Shown here piece by piece: positions 9,435 to 12,908 of a stretch of DNA of 47,553 bases. The DNA comes from a virus (lineage: Duplodnaviria; Heunggongvirae; Uroviricota; Caudoviricetes). Each line of letters starts with the position of its first letter. Positions within the stretch are counted from its first letter, which is position 1. Location of the stretch: the IMG/VR virus record IMGVR_UViG_2734482568_000006. One strand, written 5' to 3'. The notes below the pieces were generated by a model. That model saw nothing but the letters and a program-made list of their open reading frames with translations. It was not told where the DNA came from and made no database searches. The position numbers and the translations under genes were made by a program.

Positions 9435-9570
9435 GGCCGCATAACCTCCTGCTTTGTTGTTGATATCTTTATCACTCAATCGATCGACAAAAACGATCGA
9501 TTTGATTTATTTAATTGATACAACAAATAACACGAAATGTCATTAGCGAAAATTTATGAGTTTGATCACT
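9435..9570 (-). promoter_or_regulatory. Candidate mom-operon promoter region with clustered GATC (Dam) sites
   Basis: GATC at 9482-9485, 9495-9498 (within cgatcgacaaaaacgatcg) and 9564-9567, upstream of com. Mu Pmom is controlled by Dam methylation of upstream GATC sites. Confidence 0.4.
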
Positions 9571-9690
9571 AATTTTAAACGGTGCTGTAACGCATAAGTG
9601 CTGAATGATTGTACATTTGAATACCGCAAAGCAAACAAATCAACTAATTTATAGAAGTCAATTGGTTAATTGCCAGCGTAAGAGGCTGCT

Positions 9691-9984
9691 ATGGACAATC
9701 ATGTAACGACGAGAAATCGAAAAATGATTGAAAATGCGGAAATCTATAATGATTATTTTTCCGATTATTCAGATGCCTGCAAATACAGTTCGAGTGCGGG
9801 AGAGTTCATATGCTTCAACTTTTTTATTAAATCTTATGTTTTTCCTCCACAGCAAGAAGATGGAGGTGTGCCACCTCCTGAAATCACTTTGCACCGTATA
9901 GCCTCCGTCTCAATGATGGAGCAACAGGCTAATGAGCTGTATAGCATTCTGGGAACGATTCTACAAAAGCGTGAATCGGACTAA
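9691..9984 (+). CDS. Hypothetical protein (97 aa), divergent from com
   Basis: ATG preceded by aagagg RBS; no recognisable domain. Confidence 0.4.
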   Translation: MDNHVTTRNRKMIENAEIYNDYFSDYSDACKYSSSAGEFICFNFFIKSYVFPPQQEDGGVPPPEITLHRIASVSMMEQQANELYSILGTILQKRESD

Positions 9985-10151
9985 TGATACCGGTTCATTT
10001 GCCTGCCCGGATGGGGAAGCAGGATTGACTGCTCCATAAGCAGCTATATTTCTGAATACGAAATACTATCCAGCGATTACATATGGCTGGATAGCGGCAA
10101 AGATGTTTTCATTAGTGTCAAACCGGCAGAGGACACCACCGGTTTGTATTG

Positions 10152-10406
10152 TTACATCATGGTACTGTCAGTTCCGGGCTGAGCCGGGTCTGGTTGCTCT
10201 GGCTGCGCGTCGGTTTTCGGCTCATTATCAGCATCACTGGCCGCAACTGCTGGCCCAATAAGTTTTGCCAGCACTTCATCAACGTAAGTGTCGATTTGTG
10301 CCTCAAAATCCTTGCGGACCTGCGCTTTCAGCAACTTATTTACTTCACCGGAATACAGTGCCTGTTTTACCAGGTCTTCAGTGACGGTGCCTTTAATTTC
10401 TGGCAT
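10152..10406 (-). CDS. Hypothetical acidic protein (84 aa)
   Basis: Strong RBS (aaggagg) upstream of the ATG; Pro/Asp/Glu-rich C-terminus; no recognised family. Confidence 0.5.
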   Translation of the reverse strand: MPEIKGTVTEDLVKQALYSGEVNKLLKAQVRKDFEAQIDTYVDEVLAKLIGPAVAASDADNEPKTDAQPEQPDPAQPGTDSTMM

Positions 10407-10441
10407 GTATATCCTCCTTATGCGGGAATAAAGCCCTGCAA

Positions 10442-10624
10442 TCAGGGCTGGGTCGGGTCTTTTGGGAGCGGAGTTACCTGCGCTGTTTTACTGAGTTTTT
10501 CAGCTGCTGCGTCCTCAATTTTGCGGCGAACATAATTTCTGATGGCCTTATAACCACCACTCACCAGATATAACGCACATACTGCCGTGCAGAAATACAA
10601 TAAAATAAGCTGTAAAAATGTCAT
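10442..10624 (-). CDS. Small single-pass membrane protein (about 60 aa)
   Basis: Internal start MTFLQLILLYFCTAVCALYLVSGG preceded by gggaggg RBS; hydrophobic N-terminus then basic stretch. Confidence 0.45.
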   Translation of the reverse strand: MTFLQLILLYFCTAVCALYLVSGGYKAIRNYVRRKIEDAAAEKLSKTAQVTPLPKDPTQP

Positions 10625-10639
10625 TATCCCTCCCAATTA

Positions 10640-10666
10640 TTGACATGGTGTTGACACCGGTAATAT
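10640..10666 (+). promoter_or_regulatory. Candidate sigma70 promoter (TTGACA, 15 bp spacer, TAATAT)
   Basis: ttgaca at 10640-10645 and taatat at 10661-10666 on the plus strand, upstream of a terminator with no intervening plausible ORF. Confidence 0.3.
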
Positions 10667-10672
10667 CTGTTA

Positions 10673-10762
10673 GGTAAAAAGGTGCACTGCATTTTTTGCT
10701 TTGGATATAACGATCTTTTTGCCGCCGGTTTCTTGTTTTCCCTTACCGGCGGCATTTTTTTA
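10673..10762 (+). ncRNA. Candidate small RNA (promoter-to-terminator unit of about 90 nt)
   Basis: Lies between the candidate promoter and the intrinsic terminator at 10721-10762; the only plus-strand ORF crossing it runs antisense through the esterase gene and is judged spurious. Confidence 0.25.
10721..10762 (+). terminator. Rho-independent terminator (plus strand)
   Basis: gccgccggt ... accggcggc stem (9 bp) followed by attttttta; the reverse strand has an A-run instead, so it is unidirectional. Confidence 0.55.
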
Positions 10763-10768
10763 TCCTGC

Positions 10769-12823
10769 TTACGCGTTATTCACTTCCACCACGATACTGT
10801 CAATCAGTACCGGGTAAGTCGCATTTTTAGTGATATCGGTCACGCGCAACTTGTCTGCCGTAAACGTGCCGACCGGAGACTGCGACAGCATGAATGGTGT
10901 CCCGTCCTTACCATCAATGACCGGCGTCACCTCAATACTGTTGTTACCGGCAAAACGGAAGCCCAGCGTATGCCATTCGTTATTAAATGCGCCGAATGAC
11001 CCCAGCTTCGTGTTCTGCGCCGTGTTTCCTTTGTGATACATCACGTTAAGGTCTGTGGCATCGCTCTGTACGTAGAACGATGCCAGCAGGTTATGACCGG
11101 CATTTCCTTCCAGAGTAACCCCTTGCGGCAGGGCAGAAACCGGCCAGTACAGCGCCAGTGCGTACTGATTAGCCGTAAGCGCGCCATCGAGTTTAAAACG
11201 ACAACTGACAAGACCACCTTTACCCAGCAGGTCCGCACCATTACCAGCATCATGCTCAAGGTACCAGGGGGCTCTTCCTGTTTCCTTGGTCAGTTTCATT
11301 GCCTTACCCCCGCTGGCTCCGGCATCATCCACGATTTGAGCCTTGCCACCTCCGGCAGCCCAACCCTGTGGTGTCAACCGTCCTTCAGACTCAGATGCCC
11401 GGTAAGCAAATAGCGTACTCATCGTCGTGGTGTCTGCGGGTGGCGTGGACGGTTTTGATGGTGTATCAGGTGACGGCTTCTCATCCGGTGGTGTCACGGT
11501 CTGCCCACGCATCAGTTCAGCCGTGCGCCCTGCATGGAGCATAATAGCTGAGGCCAGACGGTCTGAAATGACGCCCCTGCGTGCCCATGAGCTGAAATGG
11601 CTGTCACGCTGTGTCGAAACAAAACTGCCCTGGGTTCGGGATGCTGCACCGTAATACCCGACAGCCACAATATCCGGGTCTTCCGCCGGAGCATTCGTTG
11701 GCGTGCTCTGTCCATTCTCATCCGTCAGGAACGGTACAAAGAAAATTTTCTGTGCTTCCTTGCCTTTGTAGCCACCGTATACTGCCTCATATTTATCGGT
11801 GCCAGCGTTTTTCCAGTAATACGTGGTATCACCGCAAATCCACGGCACCGTGGTGGCATTTCCACTCACGCACTGCGCAGCAAGCGGAGCCAGGTCAGTT
11901 CTGAACTGCTGAACCATGGCCGTGAATAAACTATTATGCTGCTGGCTTCCTGAGGCAAGGTCTGCCTCTCCCTGCATCCAGACCACAGCCAGAAGTTTGT
12001 TTTTCGGGTTTTTCGCCAGCGCGACTTTGGTGCGGCTTACCAGGTCCTGATACAGAGGTTTACCGGCCCCCCAGCGTGAAGAATCAGCGGAAGCACCGCT
12101 GGCCTCACTGAATGAGCCGTCGGCTCCAGTGGTGAATGCTGACCCGCCACGACAACAGGGCACCAGAAGTATCCCGGCATTCTGTGGGATATAGGGAAGC
12201 AGTTTTTTGGCAATATGCAACCCCTGACCGACAGTCCCGTACTGGCCTTTTGCCAGATCAGCTTTCGGGTGGTTTATCCCGCTCATATCCTGAACATCAT
12301 GCAGGCAGTGGTCTGCCGGAATGATGTCGTTGTATGTACACGACGTACCGTTGGGCGTTACCGTACTGCGGCGTGCCAGTTGCTTAATGCGTGGGTCCGG
12401 GCGGTCAAACGAATCCGGTAACGGCAGCCCCTCGCCGTAGGCCATGCCATTTGACTGACCCGCGAGAATGACAACAAAGTAATATTCCGGCTCTGAACTG
12501 CTGCCATTCGTGCTACCGGAAGGCCCGGCGTTATCCGGTGCATTCCAGTCGGAGGGCGTGAGCGTTCCGGCCACGTCAGATGTGATTGGAATGATGCCAG
12601 TCACGCCTGAACTGGTGATTTCTGCACTGGGATTACCGGATACCGGCATTACCCATAATGGCTCTTTCGTGCTGAAGCGGATCACGCAGTCTGCGAAGGT
12701 GATCCCCCCTTTATTACCCGAAGGGCGGAAAGGGCTTTCAATAAATGCCACCGTGCCACCGGCAACCTTGACTGAAAACTCTCCGGGCATGGCGGAGAGC
12801 ATTTTCCACTTGGAGTCTGACAT
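10769..12823 (-). CDS. SASA/SGNH-family carbohydrate O-acetylesterase (NanS-p-like or tailspike-like), 684 aa
   Basis: YYFVVILAGQSNGMAYGEG matches the GQSN motif of sialate O-acetylesterase (SASA) domains; about 120-aa N-terminal extension and a C-terminal beta-rich domain; no signal peptide. Sits between gin and com where Mu has no gene. Confidence 0.7.
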   Translation of the reverse strand: MSDSKWKMLSAMPGEFSVKVAGGTVAFIESPFRPSGNKGGITFADCVIRFSTKEPLWVMPVSGNPSAEITSSGVTGIIPITSDVAGTLTPSDWNAPDNAGPSGSTNGSSSEPEYYFVVILAGQSNGMAYGEGLPLPDSFDRPDPRIKQLARRSTVTPNGTSCTYNDIIPADHCLHDVQDMSGINHPKADLAKGQYGTVGQGLHIAKKLLPYIPQNAGILLVPCCRGGSAFTTGADGSFSEASGASADSSRWGAGKPLYQDLVSRTKVALAKNPKNKLLAVVWMQGEADLASGSQQHNSLFTAMVQQFRTDLAPLAAQCVSGNATTVPWICGDTTYYWKNAGTDKYEAVYGGYKGKEAQKIFFVPFLTDENGQSTPTNAPAEDPDIVAVGYYGAASRTQGSFVSTQRDSHFSSWARRGVISDRLASAIMLHAGRTAELMRGQTVTPPDEKPSPDTPSKPSTPPADTTTMSTLFAYRASESEGRLTPQGWAAGGGKAQIVDDAGASGGKAMKLTKETGRAPWYLEHDAGNGADLLGKGGLVSCRFKLDGALTANQYALALYWPVSALPQGVTLEGNAGHNLLASFYVQSDATDLNVMYHKGNTAQNTKLGSFGAFNNEWHTLGFRFAGNNSIEVTPVIDGKDGTPFMLSQSPVGTFTADKLRVTDITKNATYPVLIDSIVVEVNNA

Positions 12824-12908
12824 CGTCTTTTCTGCCTGTTTCTGAATTAAACAGAGTCAGAATAGCGACCGCTGAAAAATATGTGTTTTGCGGAAATTCA
12901 AAAAAGCG

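What the first reader, a model, noticed from the sequence alone, without database searches (positions are those of the whole stretch)
9435..12908. Non-Mu cargo block inserted between gin and com-mom
In Mu, gin is followed directly by com-mom. Here about 3.4 kb intervenes, carrying a 684-aa SASA-family esterase, a small membrane protein, a small acidic protein, a divergent 97-aa ORF, and a promoter-terminator unit. Regions like this near the invertase and mom are typical places for host-interaction or anti-defence cargo in transposable phages.
Basis: partly seen in the sequence, partly recalled or inferred. Interest (0 to 1): 0.7.

Follow-up and report, generated by a model that had tools for sequence, protein, structure and literature searches.

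The report
Sialate esterase module in Mu-like prophage
The extra 3.4 kb between gin and com-mom is mainly a three-gene module known from Shiga-toxin-type lambdoid phages (a sialic-acid O-acetylesterase plus two small proteins), here a fixed part of one family of E. coli Mu-like prophages, and its esterase carries a different, strongly conserved front domain in place of the capsid-binding domain of the lambdoid versions.

Summary

The content is not anonymous cargo. The 684-aa protein belongs to the NanS-p family of prophage sialate 9-O-acetylesterases. It has a NanS-like SGNH catalytic domain (Ser124, His409 intact) and the NanS-p C-terminal lectin domain. DUF1378 and DUF826 follow it, as they do between stx and the holin gene in lambdoid phages.

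DNA homology to a lambdoid prophage (87%) starts at esterase codon ~111. Upstream, the lambdoid DUF1737 domain, reported as a capsid anchor in phi24B, is replaced by an unrelated ~80-aa all-beta domain. I found that domain only in Mu-like prophages, in three lineages. It is the most constrained part of the gene (dN/dS 0.04).

About 233 of 5426 complete E. coli genomes carry this domain, roughly as many as carry Sp18-type com-mom. Mu, D108, SfMu and the E. coli W prophage lack the block. Only the low-GC slot holding the divergent 97-aa orphan ORF varies.

I found no support for an anti-defence role. Verdict: a new variant of a known kind, of moderate interest. The function of the new N-terminal domain (virion anchor or glycan binder) is unresolved.

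The parts
12909..13481 (-). gin-type serine invertase. It forms the upstream border of the block and belongs to the Mu backbone.
   Evidence: Pfam Resolvase 1.6e-51 plus HTH_7. 70% DNA identity to Mu gin.
12824..12908 (-). gin-esterase spacer with no stable hairpin. Co-transcription of the esterase with gin is therefore possible (inferred).
   Evidence: RNA fold z-score -1.27, no better than shuffles. Sequence read.
12578..12823 (-). Esterase N-terminal domain (aa 1-82). It is a new all-beta domain that stands where lambdoid NanS-p has DUF1737.
   Evidence: No Pfam hit even at E<=10. hhalign against DUF1737 gives probability 0.14%. An exhaustive phmmer search of 1.84 billion representatives finds only itself and P0006. 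dN/dS is 0.04 at dS 0.37. AF2 predicts six beta strands with mean pLDDT 58.
12491..12577 (-). Linker 1 (aa 83-111), rich in Ser/Thr/Gly/Pro/Asp. It is the recombination junction between the N-terminal domain and the esterase body.
   Evidence: pLDDT <50. DNA homology to lambdoid prophage L012 begins at 12493. Different body types are joined to an invariant N-terminal domain.
11534..12490 (-). SGNH/SASA catalytic domain (aa 112-430), NanS-like. Motifs: GQS124N, QGE284-286, D407-S-H409.
   Evidence: phmmer to PDB 3pt5 NanS/YjhS, E 1.8e-117 over aa 110-428. Motif positions. dN/dS 0.09-0.11.
11420..11533 (-). Linker 2 (aa 431-468), Pro/Ser/Thr-rich.
   Evidence: Sequence. It lies between the two PDB-matched regions.
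10769..11419 (-). C-terminal lectin-like jelly-roll domain (aa 469-684, DUF6645) plus the stop codon.
   Evidence: PDB 6yp6 'NanS-p', E 7e-98. Pfam DUF6645 7e-68.
10716..10752 (-). GC-rich hairpin (10-bp stem) between the esterase and DUF1378, flanked by A-runs. Role unknown.
   Evidence: dG -21.7 kcal/mol, z -4.65. It lies inside the stretch shared with lambdoid prophage L012.
10442..10624 (-). DUF1378 small protein: 60 aa, N-terminal hydrophobic helix, basic tail.
   Evidence: Pfam DUF1378 1.2e-31 and phrog_494. Shine-Dalgarno sequence before the ATG at 10624. dN/dS 0.14-0.26.
10152..10406 (-). DUF826 small acidic protein, 84 aa, pI 4.2.
   Evidence: Pfam DUF826 6e-16 and phrog_311. Strong Shine-Dalgarno sequence. 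dN/dS 0.08-0.22.
10120..10146 (.). Hairpin between the convergent DUF826 and ORF97 units. It is a candidate bidirectional terminator.
   Evidence: 11-bp stem, dG -16.7 kcal/mol, z -3.54.
9691..9984 (+). Orphan 97-aa ORF in a low-GC variable slot, read away from com. It is probably a real gene; function unknown.
   Evidence: No Pfam, PHROG, NCBIfam or PADLOC hit. Homologues occur only in E. coli and Shigella. The ORF is kept in a variant with 87% nt identity, with pN/pS 0.41 against 0.6-1.3 in the other frames. In relatives the slot holds other cassettes.
9435..9543 (-). Native mom/com control region with the GATC palindrome at 9478-9502. It belongs to the Mu backbone, not to the insert.
   Evidence: It aligns with the GATC cluster upstream of Mu com. 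It is 93-95% identical in the O157 lineage, whereas the neighbouring slot is unrelated.
8543..9434 (-). com (9234-9434) and mom (8543-9280), the downstream border of the block.
   Evidence: Pfam Zn_ribbon_Com and Mom. Mom is 78% identical to Mu Mom.

Best explanation
The block is a late-region module of lambdoid origin that has become a fixed part of the Sp18-type family of E. coli Mu-like prophages. It lies between the gin stop codon and the mom operator.

Its main product is a NanS-p-type sialate 9-O-acetylesterase. The catalytic SGNH domain removes O-acetyl groups from sialic acids such as Neu5,9Ac2 on mucin glycans, and the C-terminal lectin-like domain brings the enzyme to its glycan substrate. 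The protein has no signal peptide, so it should leave the cell when the phage lyses it.

DUF1378 (membrane) and DUF826 (acidic) travel with the esterase even here, away from any holin gene. This argues that the three work together.

The esterase body is exchanged by recombination with lambdoid alleles at the first linker. The N-terminal domain is specific to the phage type: DUF1737 in lambdoid and P2-like phages, and a new 80-aa beta domain in Mu-like phages.

My favoured reading is that this N-terminal domain has the same role as DUF1737 in phi24B, which is to attach the enzyme to the phage particle, but fitted to a Mu-type virion.

What is shown: homology, domain architecture, intact catalytic motifs, the recombination breakpoint, distribution, and purifying selection. 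What is inferred: enzyme activity, release by lysis, co-transcription with gin or late genes, and the virion-anchor role.

The separate 97-aa ORF is an unrelated moron of unknown function in a variable slot.
For: Family assignment:
- PDB matches: NanS at E 2e-117 and the NanS-p C-terminal domain at E 7e-98.
- Pfam SASA plus DUF6645, and phrog_143 over aa 71-684.
- Catalytic Ser124, QGE and Asp407/His409 are conserved.

Lambdoid origin:
- The same gene order, nanS-p then DUF1378 then DUF826 then holin, occurs in Stx and lambdoid phages.
- 87% DNA identity to a lambdoid prophage runs from esterase codon ~111 into DUF1378.
- Esterase bodies are up to 89-91% identical to DUF1737-bearing alleles.

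The N-terminal domain:
- It is nearly invariant across 22 protein clusters whose bodies are 83-100% identical.
- dN/dS is 0.04 at dS 0.37.
- It is unrelated to DUF1737.
- Every context I examined is Mu-like, in three lineages at 100%, 62% and 30% identity.

Distribution:
- About 233 genomes carry the N-terminal domain, against 226-235 with Sp18-type com-mom.
- The block is absent from Mu and the E. coli W prophage.

Published function of relatives:
- NanS-p enzymes are active Neu5,9Ac2 and mucin esterases that are induced with late genes (PMC8065619).
- In phi24B, DUF1737 is a capsid-decoration domain (bioRxiv 10.64898/2026.04.10.717836).
Against: - No activity, expression or virion-proteomics data exist for the Mu-like allele.
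- Between the two E. coli lineages the major capsid protein is 98% identical but the N-terminal domain only 62%. That is not what simple co-evolution with the capsid would predict.
- A small beta-sandwich would also fit a carbohydrate-binding module.
- No promoter for the esterase stands out above chance.
Confidence: 0.75

Rival explanations
1. The enzyme is a soluble fitness factor for the lysogen, and the new N-terminal domain is a second carbohydrate-binding module. It would target a glycan and have no link to the phage particle.
For: - The predicted fold is a small beta-sandwich or cupin-like jelly roll, a shape common among carbohydrate-binding modules.
- The major capsid protein is 98% identical between lineages while the N-terminal domain is 62%.
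- NanS-p is discussed in the literature mainly as a growth advantage on mucin sialic acids (PMC8065619).
Against: - Esterase bodies recombine freely between lambdoid and Mu-like alleles, yet in every locus I examined the N-terminal domain sits in a Mu-like context, and about as many genomes carry it as carry Sp18-type com-mom. A glycan-binding module should be equally useful in any phage.
- The equivalent position in phi24B is occupied by a capsid-binding domain (bioRxiv 10.64898/2026.04.10.717836).
Confidence: 0.35
2. The esterase is a tail-associated enzyme. Its N-terminal domain docks on the baseplate or fibre region, and the enzyme removes O-acetyl groups from bacterial surface glycans to help adsorption, in the manner of esterase tailspikes.
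For: - The gene lies right after the tail-fibre, invertible-segment and gin cluster.
- The design, a phage-specific N-terminus with an exchangeable enzymatic body, is the classical tailspike plan (general knowledge).
- N-terminal-domain divergence (62%) is in the range of the neighbouring tail and baseplate genes (61-80%).
- A role in receptor recognition has been raised for NanS-p (PMC8065619).
Against: - I found no similarity to any tail protein or adaptor.
- The similar divergence may simply reflect a shared recombination block.
- The body is interchangeable with alleles from capsid-decorating lambdoid proteins.
Confidence: 0.12
3. The block is anti-defence or host-takeover cargo.
For: - It lies next to mom, itself an anti-restriction function.
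- The low-GC ORF97 slot varies between relatives and holds orphan genes.
- ORF97 has no known family.
Against: - Three of the four genes have clear, non-defence homology to the NanS-p module.
- There is no credible PADLOC match.
- The trio is fixed in the lineage rather than variable.
- At most, only ORF97 (about 0.3 kb of the 3.4 kb) could fit this reading.
Confidence: 0.08
4. The block is a decaying remnant of a past recombination with a lambdoid prophage and no longer has a function.
For: It is foreign to the Mu gene order, and the neighbouring slot holds frameshifted ORFs in some relatives.
Against: - All three ORFs are intact in every locus examined.
- dN/dS is 0.04-0.26, with saturated or high dS.
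- Catalytic residues are invariant.
- The prophage sits at many different sites, sometimes in several copies per genome, which points to an active element.
Confidence: 0.02

Closest known systems
NanS-p, the prophage sialate 9-O-acetylesterase of Stx/lambdoid phages (933W L0105/z1466; phi24B gp84 = vb_24B_21)
   Same: - Same catalytic SGNH/SASA domain and same C-terminal lectin domain. Identity is 52-69% to the Stx-phage alleles examined and up to 89-91% to other lambdoid alleles.
- Both have two flexible linkers.
- Both are followed by DUF1378 and DUF826 genes.
   Different: - The N-terminal DUF1737 domain is replaced by an unrelated ~80-aa beta domain.
- The gene sits in a Mu-like transposable prophage between gin and com, not between Q/stx and the holin gene.
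- No holin or lysis genes are adjacent.
Chromosomal NanS (YjhS) of E. coli, PDB 3pt5
   Same: The catalytic domain is homologous over its full length (aa 110-428 against 16-331, E 2e-117), with the Ser and His motifs conserved.
   Different: NanS is a single-domain protein of 337 residues. It has neither the N-terminal domain nor the lectin domain, and it is not phage-borne.
The gin-com-mom right end of phage Mu, D108 and SfMu
   Same: gin, the GATC-bearing mom operator, com and mom are all present, in the same order and orientation.
   Different: Mu has 94 nt between gin and com. Here about 3.4 kb is inserted between the gin stop codon and the operator.
[not shown]
   Same: - Same prophage family and the same block at the same place: esterase with the same kind of N-terminal domain, then DUF1378, then DUF826.
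- Sp18 is described as apparently intact (PMC2669165).
   Different: - The O157 block is much more diverged (N-terminal domain 62%, body 52-69%, DNA 70-78%) than the flanking com-mom (95-97%).
- The slot before com holds a different ORF (154 aa, phrog_26524) in place of ORF97.

Membership tests
NanS-p (prophage sialate O-acetylesterase) | SGNH/SASA catalytic domain homologous to NanS, with the catalytic Ser (GQSN) and His (DxH) present | tested here: met
   PDB 3pt5 at E 1.8e-117. GQS124N, QGE284-286 and D407-S-H409 are present and invariant in 19 aligned homologues.
NanS-p (prophage sialate O-acetylesterase) | C-terminal lectin-like jelly-roll domain (DUF6645; PDB 6yp6) | tested here: met
   6yp6 at E 7e-98 over aa 469-683. 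Pfam DUF6645 7e-68.
NanS-p (prophage sialate O-acetylesterase) | N-terminal DUF1737 (PF08410) domain | tested here: not met
   No PF08410 hit even at E<=10. hhalign of the N-terminal-domain profile against a DUF1737 profile gives probability 0.14%. The 22 closest full-length clusters also lack PF08410.
NanS-p (prophage sialate O-acetylesterase) | Encoded in the late region of a lambdoid prophage, downstream of Q/stx and upstream of the holin S gene | tested here: not met
   The gene lies in a Mu-like prophage (MuA, MuB, Mor, gpT, gp47/48) between gin and com. No holin gene is adjacent.
NanS-p (prophage sialate O-acetylesterase) | Followed by DUF1378 and DUF826 small genes | tested here: met
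   Pfam DUF1378 1.2e-31 and DUF826 6.4e-16, directly downstream. The same order occurs in Shigella phage 75/02 Stx.
NanS-p (prophage sialate O-acetylesterase) | Esterase activity on Neu5,9Ac2 and on O-acetylated mucin sialic acids | not testable with these tools
   This needs an enzyme assay. Activity has been shown for lambdoid alleles only (PMC8065619).
Mu core genome (Muvirus) | The gene is present at the equivalent position in Mu, D108 and SfMu | tested here: not met
   Mu gin and com are 94 nt apart. tblastn of the N-terminal domain finds no Mu, D108 or SfMu record. In the E. coli W Mu-type prophage gin abuts com.
Known anti-phage defence systems (PADLOC) | Significant match of any block protein to a defence-system model | tested here: not met
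   The only hit is a marginal one for DUF826 (PbeC, E 0.0076, 12.9 bits). The other three proteins have none. Anti-defence proteins are not covered by this library.
Capsid-decoration proteins of the DUF1737 type (phi24B gp84 N-terminal domain) | The N-terminal domain binds the virion (shown by cryo-EM and proteomics in phi24B) | not testable with these tools
   The domain here is unrelated in sequence and has no informative fold match. Only its position in the protein and its specificity to one phage type suggest an equivalent role.

The most novel reading that the evidence does not exclude
The strongly constrained N-terminal domain, restricted to Mu-like prophages, is a virion anchor fitted to the Mu-type particle (capsid or tail). 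If so, NanS-p esterases are in general particle-displayed, glycan-modifying enzymes built from an exchangeable enzyme body and a swappable, phage-type-specific anchor. E. coli Mu-like phages would then carry a sialic-acid or mucus-directed enzyme on their particles.
Probability: 0.35. Interest if true: 0.6.

Novelty: new variant of a known kind. Interest (0 to 1): 0.4.

Why it matters
NanS-p esterases let pathogenic E. coli feed on O-acetylated sialic acids from gut mucus. They have been counted and studied almost only in lambdoid and Stx prophages.

This work shows that a whole family of Mu-like prophages, in about 4% of complete E. coli genomes and including the O157:H7 lineages that carry Sp18-type prophages, holds a further, intact allele under purifying selection. 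Surveys keyed on DUF1737 or on stx context would miss it.

The clean domain swap at the N-terminus is a natural experiment for a recent claim from phi24B, that this position holds a capsid anchor. If the Mu-specific domain also binds the particle, the enzyme family is a modular virion decoration. If it does not, the phi24B role may be a special case.

The result also corrects the expectation that the gin-mom gap is a free cargo site. Only the small ORF97 slot varies.

Tried and rejected
1. AlphaFold2 of the full-length esterase from 19 close homologues failed (mean pLDDT 33). The alignment was too shallow, so the domain assignments rest on sequence matches to solved structures instead.

3. The word-indexed protein search with the N-terminal domain returned only fragments. 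The exhaustive search added a single remote homologue.

4. Two scans of one-genome-per-species contigs for the N-terminal domain found nothing. The host species of the third lineage (L015) therefore stays unknown; it is not among the complete E. coli genomes.

5. NCBIfam gave no useful name for any block protein.

6. Consensus promoter and terminator scans were at or below the shuffled expectation. I make no promoter call for the esterase or for ORF97.

7. I looked for a 5-bp target duplication at the prophage ends. Only a 4-nt GACA repeat is present at both junctions, so it is left as a side note.

8. Literature searches for a Mu-like nanS-p found nothing.

9. I rejected the idea that the N-terminal domain is a diverged DUF1737.

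
Full report
**1. The observation.**
The window holds a Mu-like prophage on the minus strand. Its genes include MuA, MuB, Gam, Mor, lysozyme, terminase, portal, gpT, sheath, tube, tape measure, baseplate gp46/47/48, fibre, an invertible segment and gin.

- a 684-aa ORF at 10769-12823;
- a DUF1378 gene at 10442-10624, 60 aa from the ATG that follows a good ribosome-binding site, with one hydrophobic N-terminal helix;
- a DUF826 gene at 10152-10406, pI 4.2;
- a 97-aa ORF on the opposite strand at 9691-9984.

In phage Mu gin ends 94 nt before com. blastn between the window and Mu aligns only gin and mom.

The first ~110 nt of the interval (9435 to ~9543) is backbone, not insert. 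It carries the palindrome AATCGATCG-N7-CGATCGATT (9478-9502), which aligns with the GATC cluster upstream of Mu com. It stays 93-95% identical in a diverged relative, while the sequence next to it is unrelated.

**2. What the large protein is.**
- Residues 110-428 match the solved structure of E. coli NanS/YjhS, a 9-O-acetyl-N-acetylneuraminate esterase, at E 1.8e-117.
- Residues 469-683 match the solved C-terminal domain of NanS-p at E 7e-98.
- Pfam gives SASA plus DUF6645, and PHROGs gives phrog_143 over residues 71-684.
- The SGNH motifs are intact: GQS124N, QGE284-286 and D407-S-H409. They are invariant in 19 aligned homologues.
- There is no N-terminal hydrophobic stretch, so no signal peptide.

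According to the literature, NanS-p enzymes of Stx and other lambdoid prophages are active Neu5,9Ac2 and mucin de-O-acetylases. They are induced with the late genes and give lysogens a growth advantage (PMC8065619, PMC10462455).

**3. The trio is a lambdoid module.**
In Shigella phage 75/02 Stx and in a non-Stx lambdoid prophage the order is (stx or methylase), nanS-p, DUF1378, DUF826-like gene, holin, endolysin.

At the DNA level the window is 87% identical to such a lambdoid prophage from 12493 to 10491. That runs from esterase codon ~111, through the intergenic hairpin, and into DUF1378. At the protein level the esterase body is up to 89-91% identical to DUF1737-bearing alleles of 647-650 aa.

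**4. The N-terminal domain is different.**
The first ~110 residues replace DUF1737. The evidence that this is a distinct domain:
- Pfam finds nothing even at E<=10.
- A profile-profile comparison with DUF1737 gives probability 0.14%.
- tblastn of 50,697 phage records finds the domain only in 'inserted Mu-like phage' regions.
- An exhaustive phmmer search of 1.84 billion cluster representatives returns only fragments of the protein itself and one remote relative, P0006 at 29% identity. P0006 is also fused to a GQSN esterase.
- P0006 lies downstream of a resolvase and an invertible fibre segment in yet another Mu-like prophage (GP46, Baseplate_J, Mu gp48).

Three lineages therefore exist, at 100%, ~62% and ~30% identity, and all three are in Mu-like prophages.

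In 34 IMG/VR loci the domain is always followed by an esterase body, DUF1378 and DUF826, and then com-mom wherever the contig reaches that far. The body varies from 52 to 100% identity while the N-terminal domain falls into just two discrete types.

Among 22 protein clusters the domain is nearly invariant, while at least four different body types start right after the linker. This is not simply recent ancestry. Against a second lineage the N-terminal domain has dS 0.37 but dN 0.016, giving dN/dS 0.04, the lowest value in the gene. The catalytic domain has 0.11 and the lectin domain 0.14.

The model of the domain is all-beta, with six strands over residues 7-79, followed by a disordered Ser/Thr/Gly/Pro linker. 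Confidence is only moderate (pLDDT 58). Fold searches give only generic cupin/jelly-roll similarities.

**5. Distribution.**
- The A-type N-terminal-domain DNA is in 28-32 of 5426 complete E. coli genomes.
- The B-type (O157/STEC, Sp18-like) is in 205.
- Sp18-type com-mom at >=90% identity is in 226-235.

Roughly as many genomes carry the domain as carry Sp18-type com-mom, so practically every prophage of this family appears to have the block. Copies lie at many different chromosomal sites, up to 3-4 per genome, and a few are on plasmids. That fits an active transposable phage. Sp18 itself is described as apparently intact (PMC2669165).

Mu, D108, SfMu, the Yersinia Mu-like phages and the Mu-type prophage of E. 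coli W lack the N-terminal domain. Where I checked (Mu and E. coli W), gin abuts com.

Between the two E. coli lineages the block is far more diverged (DNA 70-78%) than the flanking com-mom (95%). The block is therefore old in this family and mosaic.

**6. The variable part.**
Only the stretch between DUF826 and the mom operator changes in content (463-933 nt, GC 0.38-0.42). It holds one of:
- ORF97;
- a 154-aa ORF (phrog_26524, often frameshifted), with or without a 68-76-aa ORF;
- other combinations.

ORF97 has no family in any library. It occurs only in E. coli and Shigella. It stays open in a variant with 87% nt identity, with pN/pS 0.41 in its own frame against 0.6-1.3 in the others. It is probably a real gene of unknown function.

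A hairpin (10120-10146, z -3.5) separates it from the convergent trio.

**7. How the block most likely works.**
Shown:
- The esterase has everything an active NanS-p needs.
- All three genes are under purifying selection.

Inferred:
- The enzyme removes O-acetyl groups from sialic acids.
- Lacking a signal peptide, it is released at lysis.
- No hairpin separates gin from the esterase (z -1.3), so read-through from gin, and hence some expression in the lysogen, is possible. No promoter call is justified.
- DUF1378 and DUF826 stay with the esterase here, far from any holin gene. This suggests they serve the esterase rather than lysis.

For the N-terminal domain, a 2026 preprint reports that the DUF1737 domain of the phi24B NanS-p homologue forms hexamers on capsid hexons, and that the enzyme parts are cleaved off (bioRxiv 10.64898/2026.04.10.717836). 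N-terminal type is strictly partitioned by phage type, even though the bodies exchange freely. Together with the extreme constraint on the domain, this makes a Mu-specific virion anchor my favoured reading, at about 0.35.

Against a capsid partner: the major capsid protein is 98% identical between the two lineages while the N-terminal domain is 62%, closer to the tail and fibre genes at 61-80%. A carbohydrate-binding role is about equally likely.

**8. Comparison and verdict.**
The protein meets the catalytic, lectin-domain and downstream-synteny criteria of NanS-p. It fails the DUF1737 and lambdoid-context criteria. It works like NanS-p but is a distinct architectural variant in a different phage type.

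I found no paper linking nanS-p or sialate esterases to Mu-like prophages.

Novelty: a new variant of a known kind. Interest: moderate (0.4).

Noticed in passing
window 1-8414 and 47048-47553: The prophage is not in a chromosome here. The flank is an F-type plasmid region: a Replicase/PriCT fragment, ChaN, TonB, a TonB-dependent receptor, senB/TieB, and a Tn3 transposase fragment. It matches many E. coli plasmids at 99%. The prophage (about 8415-47047, 38.6 kb) interrupts an IS66-family transposase. Only a 4-nt GACA repeat is seen at the two junctions, not a clean 5-bp duplication.
   Followed up: partly
window 13552-14884: The invertible (G-like) segment has 86-nt inverted repeats that are 93% complementary. 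One arm lies inside the 293-aa fibre gene. There are two alternative fibre C-termini but only one tail-fibre-assembly gene (13972-14493, + strand), unlike the S-U/U'-S' pairs of Mu.
   Followed up: partly
L006, L007, L008 (relatives of the window prophage): Some relatives have no gin gene at all. The esterase then follows the tail-fibre-assembly gene directly, and the esterase/DUF1378/DUF826/com/mom order is still kept.
   Followed up: no
window 10716-10752: A GC-rich 10-bp hairpin (z -4.7) lies between the esterase and DUF1378, flanked by A-runs on the coding strand. On the opposite strand it would read as a terminator. It lies within the DNA shared with lambdoid prophages.
   Followed up: no
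window 9434-9502 compared with Mu (L003 4660-4769): The GATC operator is about 48 nt from the com start codon here and in the O157 lineage, against about 75 nt in Mu. The layout of the mom promoter and the C-protein binding site may therefore differ from Mu.
   Followed up: no
window 27689-28819 compared with L050 21187-22311: The head protease/scaffold gene is only 72.5% identical between the window prophage and the O157 Sp18-type prophage. The adjacent major capsid protein, portal and terminase are 96-98% identical. This is a sharp mosaic patch inside the head module.
   Followed up: no
L005 (Escherichia phage vB_EcoM-569R5, P2-like), locus 1-1251: A P2-like phage carries a NanS-type esterase with a diverged DUF1737-like N-terminus, right after its holin/endolysin genes. 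The esterase module therefore occurs in a third phage type.
   Followed up: partly
L038, L041, L045 and other B-type loci, slot between DUF826 and com: The alternative slot cassette, a 154-aa ORF starting 'MIQGGDYLL...' (phrog_26524), is split by frameshifts into pieces of 56-137 aa in many copies. This suggests decay or phase-variable expression.
   Followed up: partly
E. coli genome hits: Several genomes hold 3-6 copies of the com-mom or esterase N-terminal-domain sequences. Prophages of this family therefore appear to multiply within a genome.
   Followed up: no
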